Both the position numbers and the translations under genes were made by a program. Shown one piece after another: positions 1-13,974 of a DNA stretch of 64,000 bases. The notes beneath the pieces are model-generated. The model did not search any database, had not been told where the DNA came from, and saw only the letters and a list, made by a program, of their open reading frames with translations. Within the stretch, counting starts at the first letter, position 1. The number at the start of each line of letters is the position of its first letter. The stretch is from a virus, in the IMG/VR virus record IMGVR_UViG_3300037461_000951, positions 47,067 to 111,066 of that record; one strand, given 5' to 3'.

Positions 1-432
1 AAACTTATGAAACGCTCGCTGTAAGCCGTACTTCACCTGTTTAGATAAAGGTTGTTTTTTATCAGCCCAATACAGCGATAAAAATTCAGCCAATTCATCG
101 GCACGTTGTACTGTGTTGAAGATAGTATCACCTACCAAACGTCCAGATGCTTTGGGATGACGACACAGCTCTCGTGCTAACAACAATGAAGCGTGACGAA
201 TCCGGTACTGTGTTCTGGCTTCAATAGCTAAAGCAGCTACATCTTTCGGATCACACTTGACAACTAATTCTTTAATACGAGTTGCAATATCTTGACCGGA
301 TTCATAAAATTGATCTTCCCACAATAAACACGCCAATACAGCACGACGTAATTCTTTTATGGGAGTTAATGGAATAGCAGGAGCACCTTCATGAGTGAAG
401 GTGGTGCATTTAGCTTTGGTATTGAGTTGCAT
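1..432 (-). CDS. rsr: TROVE-domain Ro60-like RNA-binding protein, N-terminal part (runs off window)
   Basis: Not in the ORF track. Manual translation from ATG 432: MQLNTKAKCTTFTHEGAPAIPLTPIKELRRAVLACLLWEDQFYESGQDIATRIKELV...VAALAIEARTQYRIRHASLLLARE...VQRADELAEFLSLYW...PLSKQVKYGLQRAFHKF. These motifs are typical of bacterial Ro60; Y RNA-like units lie directly upstream. Confidence 0.9.
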   Translation of the reverse strand, partial: MQLNTKAKCTTFTHEGAPAIPLTPIKELRRAVLACLLWEDQFYESGQDIATRIKELVVKCDPKDVAALAIEARTQYRIRHASLLLARELCRHPKASGRLVGDTIFNTVQRADELAEFLSLYWADKKQPLSKQVKYGLQRAFHKF

Positions 433-480
433 TACAAGACCTCACATGAATCACAACATGTAAGGACAAACAGTGAAAGT

Positions 481-608
481 TCGGGAAACAAGCGAAAACA
501 GTAACGTAGGCGCTCTACCGACTGAGCTACATTCACCGAAATGAATGACCAGACTCGAACTGGCGACATCCCGCTTAAATGGCGAAGTAACTGTTCTCTA
601 CACCACGA
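481..608 (-). ncRNA. YrlA-like Y RNA with permuted tRNA-like domain (unit 1)
   Basis: Minus strand: closing stem CGTGGTGTAGAGAACAGTTACTTC...ACTGTTTTCGCTTGTTTCCCG. T arm GCCAG-TTCGAGT-CTGGT, loop-closed acceptor stem CATTCAT-TTCG-GTGAATG, then D arm GCTC-AGTCGGTA-GAGC. Confidence 0.85.
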
Positions 609-620
609 AAATCGTGTTTG

Positions 621-745
621 TCCGGGAAACAAGCGTTAACGGTACAAAACTCGCGCTCTACCAACTGAGCTACACACTTTGCAGTGTGACCAGATTTGAA
701 CTGGTGACATCGAGTTCCAGAAGTAACCGTTAACTACACCACAGA
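621..745 (-). ncRNA. YrlA-like Y RNA with permuted tRNA-like domain (unit 2)
   Basis: Same scaffold with compensatory change AACGGT/ACCGTT. T arm ACCAG-TTCAAAT-CTGGT, acceptor CACACT-GCAA-AGTGTG, D arm GCTC-AGTTGGTA-GAGC. Confidence 0.85.
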
Positions 746-752
746 AAAACTA

Positions 753-829
753 TTGGGGGAAAAGTTAATTACAGTGTAATCGAGGTCGCTTGCAAAGCAA
801 ATGAAGTAACTGTAATCTACACCACCCAA
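753..829 (-). ncRNA. Short Y RNA-like unit 3 (no tRNA domain)
   Basis: Shares the GTGGTGTAG..ACAGTTACTTC 5' motif and an ATTACAGT/ACTGTAAT stem; closed by TTGGG/CCCAA. Confidence 0.7.
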
Positions 830-839
830 AATCAAATCG

Positions 840-899
840 TCCGGGGAACTGGCGTTAACAGTATCTTTTAGCCGAAGTAACTGTTAACTACACCACGGA
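840..899 (-). ncRNA. Minimal Y RNA-like unit 4 (no tRNA domain)
   Basis: TCCGTGGTGTAGTTAACAGTTACTTC...ACTGTTAACGCCAGTTCCCCGGA; same motif, 9-bp stem. Confidence 0.7.
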
Positions 900-957
900 T
901 AAGCCAGTTTACTACTTATCAAGTACCCCGTCAAGTGTTTGTTGGGGTGCGTGTTGG

Positions 958-5397: not shown

Positions 5398-6015
5398 TTA
5401 AAATCTGGTTGTTAAAATATCTATCAACCAGTATTTATCGATCTTACTGAGATCGATATAATGTATGGACTCTTTTAAAAAATCTTGTATGTTTTTGGGT
5501 TGAATACGGTAATATGCAACACGTGTTTCATCATTACCCCCTTCTTTGGCAGCTTTTAAGAACTTTAAACGAATCCAGCGTTGAACAGTTCGGGGGTCTA
5601 CATTTAAGATGTGTGCTAATCCCTCTGCGGTATAGCCCACAATCGTTTCATCGCGTTCCACTTTCATTCGCCAACCATCTCGAAAACGGAACCCATCAAC
5701 GGCATCGGGTGTTCGACGGTATCCAGCTCTACGAAGAGCACGGCTGGCTTCTTCATGCGTTAGGTGGGGCATTTTACGTAGTAAAATAATTTCTGGTGCC
5801 GTCCATCGACGGACGGGGTTTTTATTGGAGATGGGTTTTAGACCCAGTTGTCTAGCTCTTTTTGTTAGTTTATCAGTTCTGCATTGCCAAATTTGGGCTT
5901 GTGTCGAGATGGCACCCAAGATATAAGGTGGGGTATACAATTCCACAATGCGGGCATCCATCTCGGGAGTAAAATTCATGGCGTGTTTCCAAGTTTGTTT
6001 GACATGAAACATCAT
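5398..6015 (-). CDS. DNA-binding protein (Myb-like repeats plus MerR/excisionase-type HTH)
   Basis: FTPEMDARIVELY / WTAPEIILLRK repeats; YTAEGLAHILNVDPRTVQRWIRLKFLKA HTH. Confidence 0.7.
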   Translation of the reverse strand: MMFHVKQTWKHAMNFTPEMDARIVELYTPPYILGAISTQAQIWQCRTDKLTKRARQLGLKPISNKNPVRRWTAPEIILLRKMPHLTHEEASRALRRAGYRRTPDAVDGFRFRDGWRMKVERDETIVGYTAEGLAHILNVDPRTVQRWIRLKFLKAAKEGGNDETRVAYYRIQPKNIQDFLKESIHYIDLSKIDKYWLIDILTTRF

Positions 6016-7808
6016 TCGTGTTCCGTTAAATGGACTCTTATTAAATTTCTGGCACTAGCGATAATCTTTTTAACGTTTTTCTCACCGATTACTCGTTGAA
6101 TTTTATCGGGATTACGAATAACATCTTGCCATGTGGTGATTCCCATGGCGGCTAGTTTTTTAGCTCTGACACCACCAATGCCCGGAAGTTGGACTAAAGC
6201 ACACAATTCGGCACTCACTCCATATCTTAAACGAATGGGAAGTATTTTGAGCATGTCGGGAATGCCCATCTTTGCAATGCCCATAATCCATGAGATCGCA
6301 CCGACAATTCTTTCAGCGTCACTTTGTAAAGGTCGGGATTGCGGAGTTGCTTTATCTCCGCATAATAAATCATGAACATCTCGACTGAGCGTGGATTGTT
6401 TTAAATACGGTCCATTTCTCCACACTTGACGAAGCGCATTGAAATATGTTTGGACGGTCGCTTCTTCACTGCGGGGAATATACGGGAGTTGCATGGAAGG
6501 TGCTGATAATCCATACGCGATGCAAAGATCGTTCTTCCATAAATTTTGGCGTTCAATATGCGAGAAACATTGCCACCAGTGGTGGACATCTTCGGGATGA
6601 AAATATAAAGTGGCGGCAACGGTTCCCAAAGCGGTAATGCTAAAGGTATTGTCGGGATTGATGACAATGGCTTTCCAGTTTTGGAGTGCGTTTAACACCT
6701 CATCAATGTGTTGCTTTTCCAGTGGACTTTGGATACTGGCTAAGGTACGGTGATACCATGTGTACATCGTATCATAATCTTTGATGACTTTATTTTTGAT
6801 CTCCGCACACAAATGAAAAGCCAGTGCATACGTATCCAATAAGGTGGAGGTGACATTGCGGGGATGGGCAACTTTTTCCTTCCATTCGGGAATATTGTCG
6901 CAAATTAAGAACACATTGCCATAAGGTGCTTTTCCAAATCTTCCAGCACGACCGGCTTCTTGAACAATGTCTAGTTCATCCACGGGTTGAATACCTCGTG
7001 CAACGCCTACTATAATTGCGTTCTGCGCAGAAGTGTTACATCCCCATGCGAGGGCTGAGGTGCTAATTAATGCGGCGATGCGATCATTATTTTCTGATTC
7101 AAATCTTTTTAATAAGTCATGACGAGTTTCAGTATCTAAATCGGCATTATAAAATTCACAAGCAATACCTAAATCTTTTAAAATAGCATCAATTCTTCGT
7201 CCCGTGTTTTTATCGTGAACAAATACGAGTGTAGATTCATTTTGATGCTCTTGCACAATTTCGATGGCTTTACGAATTTTATCATCTTGATTTTCCCAAT
7301 ATGAACCGAAGGCGTTATGGGGAATAAAATTCCAGCGAAGTTCAGTAGGTCGCCATGTGGAGTTAATAATTTCCGAAGGTTTTTTATTGAGGGTGGTGAG
7401 CCATTGTGCAAATTCTTCACAATTGGGCATGGTGGCGGACATGAACCACACTTTAGCTTGTGGTGCTATCTCACAAAAACGCATGATGGATGCTTCAATG
7501 ACATGTCCTCGACCTTCCATGGTCACTCCGTGTGCTTCATCTACCACGAGTAATTGAACATGTTTGACCCATTGATAGTGTTCACTGTAATGATTACGAG
7601 TCACACTATCTAATAATTCCGCAGTCATGATGAGGATATCAGCCGTTTCCGCTTCCTTCATCATTTCCAAACGGATTTTTTGACTGGTCAGTGTATCTCC
7701 AGTCAGTTGTAAAATCTTTTTATCTGGAAAAAGCTTACTCCAATCTTCGTATTTTTCATTGGAGAGTGCTTTAAGCGGGGCTGAGAAAATAACCTTTGCC
7801 ATAATCAT
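6012..7808 (-). CDS. Ski2/Hel308-like SF2 DEAH helicase, C-terminal part (motif Ia onward, lacks Walker A)
   Basis: APLKALSNEK (Ia), VVDEAH (II), MSAT (III), STSALAWGCN (V), QEAGRAGR (VI), ITALG winged helix, C-terminal HhH LPGIGGVRAKKL. Confidence 0.9.
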   Translation of the reverse strand: MIMAKVIFSAPLKALSNEKYEDWSKLFPDKKILQLTGDTLTSQKIRLEMMKEAETADILIMTAELLDSVTRNHYSEHYQWVKHVQLLVVDEAHGVTMEGRGHVIEASIMRFCEIAPQAKVWFMSATMPNCEEFAQWLTTLNKKPSEIINSTWRPTELRWNFIPHNAFGSYWENQDDKIRKAIEIVQEHQNESTLVFVHDKNTGRRIDAILKDLGIACEFYNADLDTETRHDLLKRFESENNDRIAALISTSALAWGCNTSAQNAIIVGVARGIQPVDELDIVQEAGRAGRFGKAPYGNVFLICDNIPEWKEKVAHPRNVTSTLLDTYALAFHLCAEIKNKVIKDYDTMYTWYHRTLASIQSPLEKQHIDEVLNALQNWKAIVINPDNTFSITALGTVAATLYFHPEDVHHWWQCFSHIERQNLWKNDLCIAYGLSAPSMQLPYIPRSEEATVQTYFNALRQVWRNGPYLKQSTLSRDVHDLLCGDKATPQSRPLQSDAERIVGAISWIMGIAKMGIPDMLKILPIRLRYGVSAELCALVQLPGIGGVRAKKLAAMGITTWQDVIRNPDKIQRVIGEKNVKKIIASARNLIRVHLTEHE

Positions 7809-8719
7809 TCACCTTTTTTGTCGATGTAGTACATATTGTTGATGATTTCTTTCAGCTCAAGATTTAAATCTTTTTTCCATTCTATTTGCATGTGACAACT
7901 TATGCAAAGAGTTACTAAGTTTTGTGGTTGATTTAAAACGTTTAAATCTTCACCACTTCGTATTGGAATTAAGTGGTGAACGTGTAAAATTTTTTCTGAT
8001 TCTTGACACAGTAAACACTGATTGTTATCTCTTTCTTTTATTTCTTTACTTAATTCAGTCCAAAAAATACCTCTACTTCTTTTTATACTGTCATTCCATC
8101 GATAGTGTTCTTCTTTATGTTTTATCCAAGGTAATTTTGTAAGATCGTTTCCGTAATTATTTTTGAGCGTTTGTAACGCTTTTTCAGATCTATTTTTTAT
8201 AAAGATAGGATCTGCATATTTTGCAGACATTATTGCTGTGTATTTCTCTTTTACTTTTTGATCATGCATTGGATTATTTTCTCCAGTGCGACGTTCATAG
8301 TTACCACCAGGTAATCGTTGTGCTTCGTGTCCTTTTTCAAGGAATTCTTTAAAAAGTTCTGGATTTTTTTCCCACCGTTTTTTAGTTTGTAAGCCACCTA
8401 ATCTACCGCAAGCAGCCATTTTAGCACGATGCTCGTCAGTATCTGGCCCCCAAGTAGGTCTGTTTTCTCTACGAGTTTGTACTGCTTTAGCTTTTAATTC
8501 TGGTACTTGACTAGCATTGGTAATATTCTCACCATATTTACGTTGGAAAGTTAATTTACTCTTTTCAGTAGCTTGAGATCTATCTCGATTTCTTTGAAAT
8601 TGTTTTAATTTCTCAGTACGCATGTGGTGTCCTCTTGCGTAAAGAGCATTTGGTTTTTTCACCAGTTGTAAACAACCACAGTGACAAAACGGAATCGATT
8701 TTCGAATGACCTTTGCCAT
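7805..8719 (-). CDS. HNH homing endonuclease
   Basis: RDNNQCLLC...LHVHHLIP...NQPQNLVTLCISCH; N-terminal CHCGC..GHH and KYG-type DNA-binding repeats. Confidence 0.85.
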   Translation of the reverse strand: MAKVIRKSIPFCHCGCLQLVKKPNALYARGHHMRTEKLKQFQRNRDRSQATEKSKLTFQRKYGENITNASQVPELKAKAVQTRRENRPTWGPDTDEHRAKMAACGRLGGLQTKKRWEKNPELFKEFLEKGHEAQRLPGGNYERRTGENNPMHDQKVKEKYTAIMSAKYADPIFIKNRSEKALQTLKNNYGNDLTKLPWIKHKEEHYRWNDSIKRSRGIFWTELSKEIKERDNNQCLLCQESEKILHVHHLIPIRSGEDLNVLNQPQNLVTLCISCHMQIEWKKDLNLELKEIINNMYYIDKKGE

Positions 8720-9590: not shown

Positions 9591-9619
9591 TTGATATGTG
9601 TTTTATTCAGGTATATCAT
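9591..9619 (+). promoter_or_regulatory. Sigma70-type promoter
   Basis: TTGATA-17 bp-TATCAT, 28 nt upstream of ATG 9648. Confidence 0.6.
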
Positions 9620-9647
9620 AGCTCAATCCATCGTTGGAGTTATCGTG

Positions 9648-10418
9648 ATGAAGATACTACATGAGTTGTTAGCGACTGAAAAGAACTTCACTTCGCAAGT
9701 GAACAAGTTGCAGTTGGAGACTTTGCAAAAGTTTGATAAAGATCATTATTTTAAGGGCTATATCAAAACTTTAAAAATGCTTAAAGATGCTCCGAATAAC
9801 GAAGAATTGGAGCTTGCGGGGAGTGAAAAGAAAGAATTAGTAACGACGGTTAAGCAGACGTTAGAATATTTGCTGACGTTCTGGATCAATGCTGAAGATT
9901 TGCAAGCTACGAAGAATGTGACGAATCAACGAGCCGTGGCAAATGTGGAGATCAATGGAAAGACTTTGTTGACAAATCTTCCCGTGGATGAGTTGATGGG
10001 TTTGGAATCACGGTTGTTAGATTTGCGGAAAGTTTTTGAAAAAATGCCAACTTTAGATGCGTCAAAGACCTGGATTCCGTCCTCGGTCAGTGATGGGGCT
10101 TGGGAGGCGGCAACAGTCGATGTCACAGTTAAAACTGAAAAGGTTTTGACTCCAGTAGTGTTGTATGAAGCCACCAAGGAACACCCGGCGCAGGTGAAAG
10201 AAGTTTCTAAAGATGAAGTGGTGGGAACGTTTACCACGAAACATTTTTCAGGCGCTTCAACCTCGTTGCAAAAAGCGCAGTGTTTAGAGCGTTTGGACGT
10301 GTTGTTGGTGGAAATTAAAAGAGCTAGAATGCGGGCGAATACGGTAGCGATTCAATCCGTTTCTGTGGGTCAGTCGATTGTGGATTTTATTACGTCCGGC
10401 ACGATAGCTCAGGTATAA
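9648..10418 (+). CDS. Conserved protein of unknown function (HPAQV-motif family, recalled as DUF7873-like)
   Basis: GGAG RBS and ATG 9648; motifs LHELLATEK, ATKNVTNQRAVANV, LP.DEL..LE, PTLD...W, EATKEHPAQV, FSGA, KRARMRAN. Confidence 0.85.
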   Translation: MKILHELLATEKNFTSQVNKLQLETLQKFDKDHYFKGYIKTLKMLKDAPNNEELELAGSEKKELVTTVKQTLEYLLTFWINAEDLQATKNVTNQRAVANVEINGKTLLTNLPVDELMGLESRLLDLRKVFEKMPTLDASKTWIPSSVSDGAWEAATVDVTVKTEKVLTPVVLYEATKEHPAQVKEVSKDEVVGTFTTKHFSGASTSLQKAQCLERLDVLLVEIKRARMRANTVAIQSVSVGQSIVDFITSGTIAQV

Positions 10419-10423
10419 TTTGA

Positions 10424-10633
10424 ATGTAGTGCAGTGTTATCGTTGTAGTGAGTGTTGAGCATCCACCACGGTATGGGTGGCGAAGGCTACATACTTGAAA
10501 GTTCGAATCTTTCCTCGCTCACTGAATGTTTGAAGCTTTCGAATATTCAGTGAGCGAGTGCCGGAATTGGTAGACGGGTGGAAACCGTGTTACGGAATGG
10601 ATGTGTGTTGGTGGTTATCGTGTTTCACTACAT
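10424..10633 (+). ncRNA. Permuted tRNA-like ncRNA A (class II-like)
   Basis: Closing stem ATGTAGTG/CACTACAT; variable-arm-like hairpin 10471-10494; T arm GAAAG-TTCGAAT-CTTTC (10497-10513); ~21-bp closed acceptor hairpin (10514-10558); D arm CCG-GAATTGGTAGA-CGG (10561-10577). Confidence 0.8.
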
Positions 10634-10647
10634 GCGTTGTTTTAAAG

Positions 10648-10813
10648 ATGTATGAAAGAATCTTGGGTTATTGACTGTGAAAGAGTTGGTTCGACTCCAA
10701 CACTCCTCGCCCAATGATACTGGGAGTTGAGTATCATTCGGGAGGAGTGCGTATGCTGGTTGAGTACATCACAAATGTCGATATTGAAATAACAGCAAGT
10801 GAATTTCATGCAT
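10648..10813 (+). ncRNA. Permuted tRNA-like ncRNA B
   Basis: Closing stem ATGTATGAAA/TTTCATGCAT; long interrupted stalk; T arm GTTGG-TTCGACT-CCAAC (10685-10701); acceptor ACTCCTC/GAGGAGT extended by AATGATACT/AGTATCATT; D arm GTAT-GCTGGTTGA-GTAC. Confidence 0.75.
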
Positions 10814-10835
10814 GTGACCAATAAGATCACAATGG

Positions 10836-10872
10836 GCCGTCAATATTTGGCTATAATGTTGACGGCTTTCTT
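10836..10872 (+). terminator. Intrinsic terminator closing the protein-ncRNA unit
   Basis: GCCGTCAATATT...AATGTTGACGGC followed by TTTCTT. Confidence 0.65.
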
Positions 10873-10939
10873 CTATTGACAGTTGATCCTGTATGCGCTA
10901 TGTTATTCATAAATGTCATACACACTTGAAGATTAAATC

Positions 10940-13125: not shown

Positions 13126-13974
13126 TTAATCTCCATAAAGAATTTTGGCGATAGCAAGTTCTGCACAGATTGTTTTTCCTGAACTGGTTGCGGTGCCTAA
13201 AATTAAATTACAATCTTTATTCCAAACATTGGAATGATATACTGTGGTTTGCACATGATTAAATTCTTTAAATGGGTAGCGAATAAAAGGCCACTGTTCG
13301 GTGGGAACACACACTTGTTCGGTGTCGATGTCCCAATTTTTGAAGTTAGAGTTTTTTGGAAAAGTGGTATGAGATTTAATAGCTAATGTTTCAATTTTAC
13401 GTTCAATCTCGGGTGGTACTGCCGACATTTGGTAGTTTTGATCTTTAAATGGATTCTCTTTTAATGGATAATTTCTAAAAGCGTTTTCCATTTTATTGAA
13501 ACCGCTTTTACTGCATTGTCCAAAGATCGAACAACCATAAAAAACGGCTCCATCAGATTGACGTGTGCGTTTTACCGTGTGTACCCGATTCTGAACACAT
13601 TTACAAAAGCGATTTTGTTGTTGCATCAAATCTACGACCTTGTTCATGTGATTCACTCGGTCGGTTAAACGCTCTTGTACGGTAGTATCACCTTCTACTC
13701 GTAAAATTTTACTTTCTTGATAACAAATTTTACCGGCAAAGCGATCCCATAAAATGATACGAATAGCATCTTCTCCAACACTTCGAGTGAGTCCTTCTCG
13801 TTCTTCAACGGTCGTATAAATATGACATTCTAATCCATGGACCGGGTAACGATGGCAAATAACCAATTCTGTGCCACGGGTGGGCGTACTGATATGGTAG
13901 TCGTTGGGTCCGAAATAATGGTCAGCCCAAGCAGTAAAATCTTGTTTGGTTAAAGTAACGAATTCTTTGCTCAT
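13126..13974 (-). CDS. N-terminal part of split helicase (Zn-ribbon, Q motif, Walker A)
   Basis: C4 ribbon FCKC...FYGCSIFGQC; ends YPFKEFNHVQ...NLILGTATSSGKTICAELAIAKILYGD-stop. Confidence 0.85.
   Translation of the reverse strand: MSKEFVTLTKQDFTAWADHYFGPNDYHISTPTRGTELVICHRYPVHGLECHIYTTVEEREGLTRSVGEDAIRIILWDRFAGKICYQESKILRVEGDTTVQERLTDRVNHMNKVVDLMQQQNRFCKCVQNRVHTVKRTRQSDGAVFYGCSIFGQCSKSGFNKMENAFRNYPLKENPFKDQNYQMSAVPPEIERKIETLAIKSHTTFPKNSNFKNWDIDTEQVCVPTEQWPFIRYPFKEFNHVQTTVYHSNVWNKDCNLILGTATSSGKTICAELAIAKILYGD

What the first reader, a model, noticed from the sequence alone, without database searches (positions are those of the whole stretch)
9591..10872. Candidate new ribonucleoprotein system: HPAQV-family protein co-transcribed with two permuted tRNA-mimic RNAs
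Seen: a self-contained plus-strand unit with a promoter (9591-9619), a 256-aa gene, ~400 nt of non-coding sequence and a terminator (10836-10872). The non-coding part folds into two tandem RNAs. Each has tRNA parts in permuted order: T arm with TTCRANY loop, then an acceptor stem closed as a very long hairpin (~21 bp in A), then a D arm with GG. A long stalk replaces the anticodon arm; there is no anticodon and no CCA end. RNA A also has a variable-arm-like hairpin and a Leu-type D arm. Established: this topology is that of YrlA Y RNAs, whose stalk binds Ro60. However, these stalks lack the GTGGTGTAG..GTTACTTC motif of the true Ro-associated RNAs at 481-899. Inference: a Ro-independent RNP in which this protein family uses tRNA-elbow mimics, for example as decoys for anticodon nucleases or tRNA-sensing defences, or as tethers to tRNA-handling enzymes. 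I know of no description of this pairing.
Basis: partly seen in the sequence, partly recalled or inferred. Interest (0 to 1): 0.92.

Follow-up and report, generated by a model that had tools for sequence, protein, structure and literature searches.

The report
tRNA-mimic RNAs paired with DUF7873
A phage gene of unknown function (DUF7873) is followed by two folded RNAs that are tRNAs "turned inside out". The same gene-plus-RNA pair recurs in nearly every related phage and bacterial locus I tested, usually without Ro60, so it is probably an undescribed protein-RNA system.

Summary
Window 9648-10418 encodes a 256-aa DUF7873 protein (Pfam PF25283, 232 bits). It is followed by two structured RNAs, A (10424-10633) and B (10648-10813), and a terminator (10834-10868). 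Each RNA has a T arm, a closed acceptor hairpin and a D arm, enclosed by a closing stem and a stalk. Neither has an anticodon loop.

A covariance model of this core found 54, 88 and 107 matches in viral, metagenomic and bacterial DUF7873 loci. All lie on the gene's strand, and nearly all just downstream of the gene. All 21 base pairs covary (about 96% paired, about 45% when the partners are slid). No other protein gene is conserved nearby.

The RNAs share their architecture with Ro60-bound YrlA Y RNAs but fail the Rfam YrlA threshold. They also lack the GTTACTTC stalk motif found in 8 of the 9 R1 or Rfam-YrlA matches parsed near Ro genes. The cassette occurs in 11 of 14 complete phage genomes and 18 of 40 bacterial genomes that have no TROVE gene. 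About half of the relatives encode N-CCA after a 7-bp acceptor; this window's copies do not.

Binding of the protein to the RNA, and the function, remain inferred. This scan has reported the same pair before on other DNA (at least 91 genomes). I found no paper describing it.

The parts
9591..9619 (+). promoter-like site TTGATA-17-TATCAT
   Evidence: Consensus scan. The -10 box is kept as TATGAT or TATAAT in sister lineages. The -35 box is not conserved. Unverified.
9648..10418 (+). DUF7873 gene (256 aa) with an invariant HPAQ motif at residues 179-182
   Evidence: Pfam PF25283, 231.7 bits against a cut-off of 27. 711 homologues. Invariant N93, A96, P112, L116, L119, P134, K165, H179-P-A-Q182, R227, A230, N231. 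AlphaFold2 model with pLDDT 93 and no informative fold match.
10424..10633 (+). RNA A: permuted class-II-like tRNA mimic. Outer helix 10424-10431/10626-10633; closing stem 10466-10469/10578-10581; variable-arm hairpin 10470-10495; T arm 10497-10513; 21-bp acceptor hairpin 10514-10558; Leu-type D arm 10561-10577.
   Evidence: Sequence. RNAalifold on three lineages, 16 pairs with compensatory changes. Model R1 gives 22.9 bits with filters off.
10648..10813 (+). RNA B: permuted tRNA mimic. Interrupted stalk of about 25 bp, 10648-10675/10774-10813; closing stem 10676-10680/10769-10773; T arm 10685-10701; acceptor hairpin 10702-10748; D arm 10751-10767.
   Evidence: Model R1 gives 32.5 bits. RNAalifold consensus on three lineages.
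10815..10830 (+). small conserved hairpin GTGA...TCAC between RNA B and the terminator
   Evidence: columns 194-210; 4 pairs, invariant in three lineages.
10834..10868 (+). intrinsic terminator
   Evidence: 14-pair stem plus T tail. Five pairs show changes on both sides across lineages.
506..733 (-). separate Ro60-linked YrlA-type RNAs (not part of the cassette; used as an internal comparison)
   Evidence: Rfam YrlA 49.5 and 33.1 bits. R1 40.9 and 32.9 bits. GTTACTTC-type stalk and a 6-8 bp acceptor closed by a 2-4 nt loop. TROVE gene at the window's left edge.

Best explanation
The unit is one copy of a widespread two-component cassette: a DUF7873 protein gene followed on the same strand by one or two circularly permuted tRNA-like RNAs.

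Shown:
- Each RNA folds as a tRNA body (T arm, 7-bp or longer acceptor helix, D arm, and the elbow nucleotides U8, G18-G19, T54-Psi55-C56, A58).
- The acceptor end is closed by a linker.
- The anticodon arm is replaced by a closing stem that leads into a stalk formed by the RNA's own 5' and 3' parts. This is the YrlA plan.

Inferred:
- DUF7873 binds the stalk or inner loop of its own RNA, as Ro60 binds the Y RNA stem, and forms a Ro60-independent particle.
- The exposed tRNA-shaped head is handled by tRNA enzymes such as TruB, Dus and RNase P. It either tethers the protein to tRNA-handling machinery or occupies that machinery.
- In the roughly half of lineages that encode N-CCA after a 7-bp acceptor, RNase P cleavage and 3' trimming probably give a two-piece, CCA-ended molecule, as was shown for M. 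smegmatis YrlA.
- In this window the acceptor is a continuous 21-bp (A) or about 19-bp (B) hairpin without CCA, so the RNAs probably stay in one piece.
- In this phage the gene and both RNAs appear to be one transcription unit that is later cut into species of about 210 and 165 nt.
For: Position:
- Model R1 (built from six sequences) gave 54 matches at E <= 0.01 in 45 viral DUF7873 loci (274 kb, both strands). All were on the gene's strand and downstream of the gene.
- It gave 88 matches in 80 metagenome loci, all on the + strand. 69 of 80 loci had a match; most of the rest end within 250 nt of the gene.
- It gave 107 matches in 80 bacterial genome loci, all on the + strand and 40-500 nt after the gene. 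74 of 80 loci had a match, and 3 of the remaining 6 end at or near the gene.
- It found modules in all four cultured phages tested: phiRSL1, FBKp24, Ronaldo and K479.

Structure:
- 95.6% and 96.3% of cells are paired, against 58-61% in shuffles and about 45% when partners are slid.
- All 21 pairs covary, with 434 and 725 double changes.
- Elbow nucleotides are near-invariant.

A two-part unit:
- DUF7873 is the only protein conserved across the loci.
- Bacterial neighbours are unrelated housekeeping genes.

Trans action is plausible:
- In L004, L005 and L041 an opposite-strand NUMOD3 endonuclease gene separates the gene from the RNAs, yet the RNAs are intact.

Ro independence:
- TROVE is present in only 3 of 14 complete phage records (6 of 50 overall) and 22 of 40 bacterial genomes. 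In the three bacterial genomes where both genes lie on one contig they are 1.9-4.5 Mb apart.
- Several phages that have Ro, including this one, carry separate Ro-adjacent YrlAs with a GTTACTTC stalk. None of the 54 cassette RNAs has that motif.

Precedent:
- M. smegmatis YrlA, which has a 7-bp acceptor, is cut by RNase P and ends in CCA in vivo (PMC4201824).
Against: - There are no transcript, binding or processing data.
- The DUF7873 fold gives no functional hint. The best match is 3kdq_A, a protein of unknown function, at Z 9.7. No fused forms were found.
- I found no sequence motif in the stalk shared by all lineages that could serve as a common binding site.
- The fixed order, gene then RNA on one strand, would also fit a cis-acting 3' element or a transient enzyme-substrate relation.
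- In one phage (L060) the order is Ro60, DUF7873, RNA, with no separate YrlA nearby. Some tie to Ro therefore cannot be excluded.
- 55% of the bacterial carriers sampled do have a TROVE gene.
- An earlier check within this scan priced the bold 'binds and works as one unit without Ro60' reading at only 22/100.
Confidence: 0.5

Rival explanations
1. DUF7873 is an enzyme or maturation factor that acts only transiently on the tRNA-like RNA (cutting, modifying or loading it), or the RNA is its cofactor or guide. There is no stable Ro-like particle. The tRNA-like RNA is the working molecule, for instance a CCA-ended and possibly aminoacylated carrier.
For: The synteny evidence is the same as for the main reading. 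N-CCA is encoded after a 7-bp acceptor in 40 of 81 distinct modules, which points to a matured 3' end. The protein has invariant polar residues (K165, H179, Q182, R227, N231) that could be catalytic.
Against: No known catalytic fold or family matches. CCA has decayed in many lineages, including this window's, where the acceptor is a closed long hairpin. A CCA end therefore cannot be essential to the shared function.
Confidence: 0.2
2. The RNAs are cis-acting 3'-UTR elements of the DUF7873 mRNA. The tRNA-like fold would be a processing or stabilising signal (an RNase P or exonuclease barrier) that sets the messenger's 3' end and lifetime.
For: The RNA lies downstream of the gene on the same strand in nearly every locus, and all 249 matches at E <= 0.01 are on the gene's strand. 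No terminator separates gene and RNAs here.
Against: An elaborate four-way junction with preserved tRNA elbow nucleotides, often in two different copies, is far more than a stabiliser needs. The RNAs persist 670-1000 nt away behind an opposite-strand inserted gene in four loci. A TATAAT/TATAGT box overlapping the stop codon is conserved and could drive the RNAs on their own. FBKp24 has an annotated promoter between gene and RNA.
Confidence: 0.1
3. In this phage the two RNAs are simply further Y RNAs of the phage's own Ro60 (YrlA paralogues), and their position next to DUF7873 is incidental.
For: The core architecture is the same: R1 hits the Ro-linked YrlAs at 41 and 33 bits. Rfam YrlA is the best sub-threshold family for short-linker relatives, at 23-27 bits. 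The phage encodes Ro60 about 9 kb away. In L060 the order is Ro60, DUF7873, RNA.
Against: Rfam YrlA gives no match to 10380-10900 even at E <= 10. No GTTACTTC stalk motif is present. Ro has its own adjacent YrlAs here and in L008, L050 and L025. The cassette occurs without any TROVE gene in 11 of 14 complete phages and 18 of 40 bacterial genomes.
Confidence: 0.08
4. They are true circularly permuted tRNA genes, or a two-piece tmRNA. The ends would be cut and joined, or left as two pieces, to give a decoding tRNA or a trans-translation RNA.
For: The order (3' half, N-CCA, linker, 5' half) is that of permuted tRNA genes and of two-piece tmRNA. L042 gives partial matches to cyano_tmRNA (19.3 bits) and tmRNA_permuted (17.7 bits). 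The positions flanking the closing stem are weakly anticodon-loop-like (T at +2 in 46%, A at -1 in 49%).
Against: There is no conserved U33 or R37 and no 7-nt loop. Instead there is a conserved long stalk. ARAGORN finds no tRNA or tmRNA. There is no G3:U70 (both window modules have G3-C70, read from the sequence) and no tag frame. Discriminator bases vary. This window's copies have no CCA.
Confidence: 0.04

Closest known systems
YrlA Y RNAs with Ro60/Rsr (Rfam RF02553; Chen et al. 2014, PMC4201824; Wang et al. 2018, bioRxiv 10.1101/312249)
   Same: Both have a permuted tRNA-like domain (T arm, closed acceptor, D arm) inside a stem formed by the RNA's two ends. Both keep the tRNA elbow nucleotides. 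Both often occur as tandem RNAs beside one protein gene. The M. smegmatis form has a 7-bp acceptor, is cut by RNase P and carries CCA. Both occur in bacteria and phages.
   Different: The adjacent gene is DUF7873, not a TROVE protein. The stalk lacks the Ro-type motif. Scores are far below the Rfam cut-off (none, or 23-27 bits against 69). The acceptor is a full 7 bp plus discriminator plus, often, an encoded CCA, with linkers of 7-95 nt, instead of 6-8 bp closed by a 2-5 nt loop. The cassette mostly occurs in genomes without Ro60 and coexists with true YrlAs in this phage.
Two-piece (permuted) tmRNA with SmpB (Keiler et al. 2000, from memory; Rfam RF01851 and RF04321)
   Same: The gene order is T arm, 3' acceptor strand, CCA, excised linker, 5' acceptor strand. 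It is a tRNA-like domain without an anticodon arm, working with a dedicated small protein whose gene is often adjacent.
   Different: Here there is no tag reading frame, no pseudoknots and no G3:U70. ARAGORN finds nothing, and the Rfam matches are only partial (17-19 bits). A full D arm is present.
Circularly permuted tRNA genes of Cyanidioschyzon merolae and some archaea (Soma et al. 2007; Chan et al. 2011; from memory)
   Same: The 3' half is encoded before the 5' half, and the acceptor ends are joined by a linker.
   Different: Those genes mature through a bulge-helix-bulge cut and circularisation into normal decoding tRNAs. Here there is no anticodon loop and a long conserved stalk stands in its place.
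SPFH/Band-7 module with a 'novel tRNA-like molecule' predicted by Burroughs and Aravind 2016 (NAR 44:8525; abstract recalled from memory; the paper could not be opened)
   Same: It proposes a Ro-independent protein scaffold with its own tRNA-like non-coding RNA.
   Different: The protein family differs: DUF7873 gives no Pfam or fold match to SPFH. No RNA-repair genes are linked to the cassette. Whether the RNAs are related was not checked.

Membership tests
DUF7873 (Pfam PF25283) | Profile match above the curated cut-off over the full length | tested here: met
   231.7 bits against 27, residues 1-249 of 256.
YrlA / Ro60-bound Y RNA (Rfam RF02553) | Permuted tRNA-like core (T arm, closed acceptor, D arm) enclosed by a stem | tested here: met
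   R1 matches at 10676-10773 (32.5 bits) and 10488-10601 (22.9 bits). The same model hits the window's Ro-linked YrlAs. Covariation is shown.
YrlA / Ro60-bound Y RNA (Rfam RF02553) | Reaches the family's gathering score (69 bits) | tested here: not met
   No match at gathering score in the window or in 20 related loci. No match at E <= 10 in 10380-10900. Short-linker relatives score 23-27 bits. The phage's Ro-linked YrlAs are themselves below the cut-off (33-49.5 bits), so this test alone is weak.
YrlA / Ro60-bound Y RNA (Rfam RF02553) | Ro-binding stalk sequence (GTTACTTC-type 5' strand in this group of phages) | tested here: not met
   Present in 8 of the 9 R1 or Rfam-YrlA matches parsed near Ro genes in 5 phages; the ninth, which encodes CCA, lacks it. 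Present in 0 of 54 DUF7873-linked modules within one mismatch in the 90 nt upstream.
YrlA / Ro60-bound Y RNA (Rfam RF02553) | Encoded next to a TROVE/Ro60 gene | tested here: not met
   Ro lies about 9 kb away on the other strand with its own YrlAs. TROVE is absent from 11 of 14 complete phage records and 18 of 40 bacterial genomes that carry the cassette. L060 is an exception: there the Ro gene is adjacent.
YrlA / Ro60-bound Y RNA (Rfam RF02553) | Bound by Ro60 in vivo | not testable with these tools
   Needs immunoprecipitation or EMSA.
Canonical or permuted decoding tRNA | Seven-nt anticodon loop with U33 and a purine at position 37; detected by tRNA finders | tested here: not met
   ARAGORN finds none. 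Rfam tRNA finds none at gathering score. The flanks of the closing stem have T at +2 in only 46% and no invariant position. A conserved stalk stands where the loop would be.
Two-piece tmRNA | Tag reading frame, G3:U70 alanine identity, encoded CCA before the linker | tested here: not met
   ARAGORN finds no tmRNA. Both window modules have G3-C70 and lack CCA. tmRNA_permuted scores 17.7 bits against 47 in a relative.

The most novel reading that the evidence does not exclude
DUF7873 and its permuted tRNA-like RNA form a new, ancient class of ribonucleoprotein. It is found in many bacterial phyla and in phages and is independent of Ro60. In this reading the RNA is matured by RNase P and 3' trimming into a two-piece, CCA-ended tRNA body in many lineages, perhaps even charged with an amino acid. 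The protein holds the stalk that replaces the anticodon arm. This would be a third tRNA-mimic particle beside tmRNA-SmpB and Y RNA-Ro60, with a cellular role still to be found, and one that phages have captured into their tRNA gene clusters.
Probability: 0.3. Interest if true: 0.9.

Novelty: new variant of a known kind. Interest (0 to 1): 0.78.

Why it matters
Only a few tRNA-shaped non-coding RNAs with dedicated protein partners are known, chiefly tmRNA-SmpB and Y RNA-Ro60. Each of those opened a field: ribosome rescue and RNA quality control.

This is a second protein family tied as tightly to a YrlA-like RNA as Ro60 is. The protein matched in at least 585 bacterial genome stretches, and the gene-RNA pair held in nearly every sampled locus of at least 7 phyla. 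The protein also occurs in 75 cultured phages, and all four that were tested carry the RNA. Neither the RNA nor the pairing is in Rfam or in any paper I could search.

It is directly testable in tractable systems: Klebsiella phage FBKp24, Ralstonia phage phiRSL1, Gordonia phage Ronaldo, Anabaena/Nostoc and Nocardia.

In practice the RNAs are currently unannotated or mis-called, for example as a 'suppressor tRNA' in FBKp24 or as small hypothetical ORFs. A covariance model would therefore improve phage and bacterial annotation.

Tried and rejected
- **Rfam.** Nothing at gathering score, and only chance-level miRNA or tRNA-Sec matches in the region at E <= 10.
- **DNA similarity.** The locus has no match in GenBank phages.
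- **Protein libraries.** PHROGs, NCBIfam and PADLOC gave no family for the protein.
- **PDB sequence profile.** Nothing found.
- **Fold searches.** Foldseek against PDB and BFVD gave nothing at E <= 0.001. VIA-align wide gave only 3kdq_A, a protein of unknown function (Z 9.7), followed by generic helical hairpins.
- **ESM Atlas.** Only unnamed clusters at 0.80-0.81.
- **Fused forms.** The search for longer forms found none.
- **Universal motif.** Looking in leaders and stalks for a shared sequence by k-mer enrichment and position counts found only T-arm and D-arm words plus clade-specific words such as TTAAACG and TTATCG.
- **An anticodon in the 3' flank.** Several clades read AUUAG, AUAAG or AUCAG, which looks like Leu anticodons. 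I rejected this because position 33 is U in only 46% and discriminator bases vary.
- **Autoregulation through GTTATCGT.** The motif sits at the RBS and twice in RNA A. In L067 the RBS copy is kept while the RNA copies differ, so there is no co-variation.
- **Apparent direct repeats flanking the modules.** On inspection of the flank sequences, many of these repeats are built from CTNAG-type words, which are their own reverse complement. I read them as stalk strands, not as a separate signal. This was not tested computationally.
- **Tools and papers that failed.** Burroughs and Aravind 2016 could not be opened.
Full report
**What is in the window**

The window is part of a 111-kb uncultured virus record. 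At 9648-10418 on the plus strand lies a 256-aa gene that matches Pfam DUF7873 over its whole length (231.7 bits). It matches nothing in PHROGs, NCBIfam or PADLOC.

A promoter-like site lies at 9591-9619 and a terminator at 10834-10868, and there is no terminator between them. The -10 box and the terminator stem are kept, with compensatory changes, in two sister lineages (L008/L066 and L067-L070). The -35 box is not kept.

The 457 nt after the stop codon fold much better than shuffles (z = -6.4).

**The two RNAs**

Reading the sequence, my own parser and RNAalifold on three lineages gave two tandem RNAs.

RNA A spans 10424-10633:
- an outer helix, a large inner region and a 4-bp closing stem
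- a variable-arm hairpin that covaries
- a T arm, GAAAG-TTCGAAT-CTTTC
- a 21-bp acceptor hairpin
- a D arm, CCG-GAATTGGTAGA-CGG, of the tRNA-Leu type

RNA B spans 10648-10813:
- an interrupted stalk of about 25 bp
- a 5-bp closing stem, TGTGA/TCACA
- a 4-nt variable loop, a T arm, an acceptor hairpin and a 4-bp D arm

Neither RNA has an anticodon loop. ARAGORN and Rfam at gathering score find nothing.

**Is the pairing with the protein real?**

I fetched 58 viral loci that encode DUF7873 relatives of 29-87% identity. Almost every one has one or two T arms 40-400 nt after the gene on the same strand. These are followed at once by a 7-nt strand, a linker, the complementary 7-nt strand, U8-N9 and a D arm.

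I built a covariance model, R1, from six such sequences: closing stem, T arm, 7-bp acceptor and D arm, 21 pairs in all. Its matches at E <= 0.01 were as follows.

| Set searched | Matches | Strand and position |
|---|---|---|
| 45 viral loci without tRNA arrays (274 kb, both strands) | 54 | all on the gene's strand, all downstream of the gene |
| 80 metagenome loci | 88 | all on the + strand; 69 of 80 loci hit; most of the rest end within 250 nt of the gene |
| 80 bacterial genome loci | 107 | all on the + strand, 40-500 nt after the gene; 74 of 80 loci hit; 3 of the remaining 6 end at or near the gene |
| 4 cultured phages (phiRSL1, vB_KpM_FBKp24, Ronaldo, K479) | modules in all four | unannotated or mis-called in the records |

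The bacterial loci come from Nocardia, Actinomadura, Nostoc/Anabaena, Polyangiaceae, Planctomycetota, Burkholderiales, Chloroflexota and others.

In loci that hold tRNA arrays, R1 also scores junctions between neighbouring tRNAs. That is why those loci were left out of the count.

**Is the fold real?**

- On the viral alignment 95.6% of cells pair, against 58% after shuffling and 42-48% when the partners are slid. All 21 pairs covary, with 434 double changes.
- The bacterial alignment gives 96.3% paired and 725 double changes.
- Both alignments are fitted to the model, but the slid controls and the diversity of pair types leave little doubt.
- The elbow nucleotides are near-invariant: T54 in 54/54, T55 in 51/54, C56 in 53/54, A58 in 54/54, G53-C61 in 53/54, U8 in 52/54, and GG in the D loop in 44/54.

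**New points about the family**

- Right after the 7-nt 3' acceptor strand, 40 of 81 distinct modules read N-CCA. The rest read decayed forms such as CCT, CCC and CTA. The ancestral form is therefore a full acceptor end with discriminator and CCA, closed by a 7-95 nt linker.
- This window's copies (ACTG, GCCC) have lost CCA and have extended the helix instead.
- Two-module loci are common: 33 of 74 bacterial and 12 of 42 viral loci. The two modules differ in a regular way. The first has a 3-bp D stem with a 10-11 nt loop, and the second has the usual 4/7/4 D arm.
- DUF7873 is the only conserved protein in the loci. Bacterial neighbours are unrelated housekeeping genes. In phages the cassette often sits in or beside tRNA gene arrays.

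**Relation to Ro60 and YrlA**

The architecture is that of YrlA. R1 hits the window's Ro-linked RNAs at 650-714 and 506-574 on the minus strand. Rfam YrlA is the best, though far sub-threshold, match for short-linker relatives (23-27 bits; in L028 only model positions 23-85, the core).

Four things set the cassette RNAs apart.
1. Rfam YrlA gives nothing for 10380-10900 even at E <= 10.
2. Of the nine R1 or Rfam-YrlA matches parsed near Ro genes in five phages, eight carry (G)TTACTTC in the 5' stalk strand and a 6-8 bp acceptor closed by 2-5 nt without CCA. The ninth is a CCA-type module without the motif. None of 54 cassette RNAs has that motif within one mismatch.
3. In this phage, and in the phages of L008, L050 and L025, both kinds coexist, each next to its own protein gene.
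4. TROVE is found in only 6 of 50 virus records with the cassette, and in 3 of the 14 that are at least 90% complete. It is found in 22 of 40 bacterial genomes. In the three of those genomes where both genes lie on one contig they are 1.9-4.5 Mb apart.

There are caveats. When a phage has Ro, it is often within 10 kb of the cassette. In L060 the order is tRNA array, Ro60, DUF7873, RNA, with no separate YrlA nearby. Some functional kinship of the two systems is therefore likely.

**The protein**

The AlphaFold2 model is confident (pLDDT 93). It shows long helices and a long beta-hairpin whose tip carries the invariant HPAQ motif (residues 179-182; strands 158-173 and 182-197).

No fold search gave an informative match. 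There are no fused forms.

A conserved proline at the tip of a beta-ribbon arm recalls how IHF and HU insert into nucleic-acid helices. That is my inference only.

**How it most likely works**

Shown: a conserved two-part cassette, a covarying tRNA-like fold with intact elbow, no anticodon loop, and independence from a Ro gene.

Established elsewhere: YrlA is modified by TruB and DusA. M. smegmatis YrlA, which has a 7-bp acceptor, is cut by RNase P and carries CCA in vivo while both halves stay together (PMC4201824).

Inferred: DUF7873 binds the stalk or inner loop of its RNA. The tRNA-shaped head engages tRNA enzymes or other readers of the tRNA elbow. CCA-type relatives become two-piece, CCA-ended molecules. 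This window's long-hairpin versions stay whole.

I put the stable-RNP reading at 0.5. The rivals are an enzyme-substrate or cofactor relation (0.2), a cis-acting 3' element (0.1), ordinary Ro60 Y RNAs (0.08), and true permuted tRNA or tmRNA (0.04).

The cis-element idea is weakened by four loci in which an opposite-strand NUMOD3 homing-endonuclease gene separates the gene from intact RNAs. It is also weakened by a conserved TATAAT/TATAGT box overlapping the stop codon.

The decoy-for-anticodon-nuclease idea is weak because there is no anticodon loop. In addition, the system lives in ordinary bacterial chromosomes.

**Novelty**

Full-text searches for DUF7873, permuted tRNA in phages, YrlA, tRNA-like Y RNA in phages and circularly permuted tRNA-like RNAs found no description. 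The jumbo-phage survey mentions only ROT/TROVE with its tRNA-like partner. The Thermus phage Ro60 paper concerns Ro-adjacent Yrl RNAs. A 2026 preprint on three families of tRNA mimics treats other motifs.

Burroughs and Aravind 2016, as I recall its abstract, predicted an SPFH/Band-7 scaffold with a novel tRNA-like RNA. I could not open the paper. DUF7873 shows no SPFH match.

This scan has reported the same pair many times on other DNA (117 notes in at least 91 genomes). One later check priced the bold 'binds and needs no Ro60' reading at 22/100. My own tests of the pairing in three collections all came out strongly positive. Binding remains untested.

**Verdict**

This is a new variant of a known kind: a YrlA-plan tRNA mimic with a new protein partner. 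Interest is 0.78.

Noticed in passing
window 1-900 (minus strand) and G000:C1:46683-47363: A phage Ro60/TROVE gene at the left edge of the window, with at least two YrlA-type RNAs just upstream of it (Rfam YrlA 49.5 and 33.1 bits, below the cut-off of 69). Their stalks carry GTTACTTC.
   Followed up: partly
L025 and L036, 3001-3747: The DUF7873 match in a 341-kb jumbo-phage contig holds one in-frame stop codon under table 11. This may be stop-codon recoding or a sequencing error.
   Followed up: no
L041 3726-4442 (-); also L004, L005, L006: In T4-like phages an opposite-strand NUMOD3 homing-endonuclease gene is inserted between the DUF7873 gene and its two RNA modules. The modules stay intact 670-1000 nt away.
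   Followed up: partly
L063 4013-4097 (Klebsiella phage vB_KpM_FBKp24, MW394391 46041-46120): The annotated 'tRNA-Sup-TTA' (ARAGORN: tRNA-Stop) overlaps the T arm and 3' acceptor strand of permuted module 2. It is probably a false tRNA call.
   Followed up: partly
L060 1319-3977 (= L151): The order is tRNA array, Ro60 (527 aa), DUF7873, permuted tRNA-like RNA, all in a row on one strand. No separate YrlA was found within about 4 kb. This is the one case in which Ro and DUF7873 might share an RNA.
   Followed up: partly
window 9639-9646, 10436-10443, 10614-10621: GTTATCGT occurs at the gene's ribosome-binding site and on both sides of RNA A's inner region (4 copies in 64 kb against 1.8 expected). 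In L067 the RBS copy is kept but the RNA copies differ, so there is no co-variation.
   Followed up: yes
window 10410-10419: CAGGTATAAT (TATAGT in L008) overlaps the stop codon and is conserved in three lineages although the protein C-termini differ. It may be an internal -10 box for the RNAs.
   Followed up: partly
window 6012-7808 and 13126-13974 (minus strand): The cassette lies among about 10 genes, including an HNH endonuclease gene (7805-8719). According to another first-stage note, these genes lie between the two halves of a split SF2 helicase. Pfam confirms DEAD/Helicase_C in 6012-7808 only.
   Followed up: no
L027 1473-1873: A 392-kb phage contig carries a full tmRNA gene (Rfam 108.7 bits) about 1.1 kb upstream of its DUF7873 cassette.
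   Followed up: no
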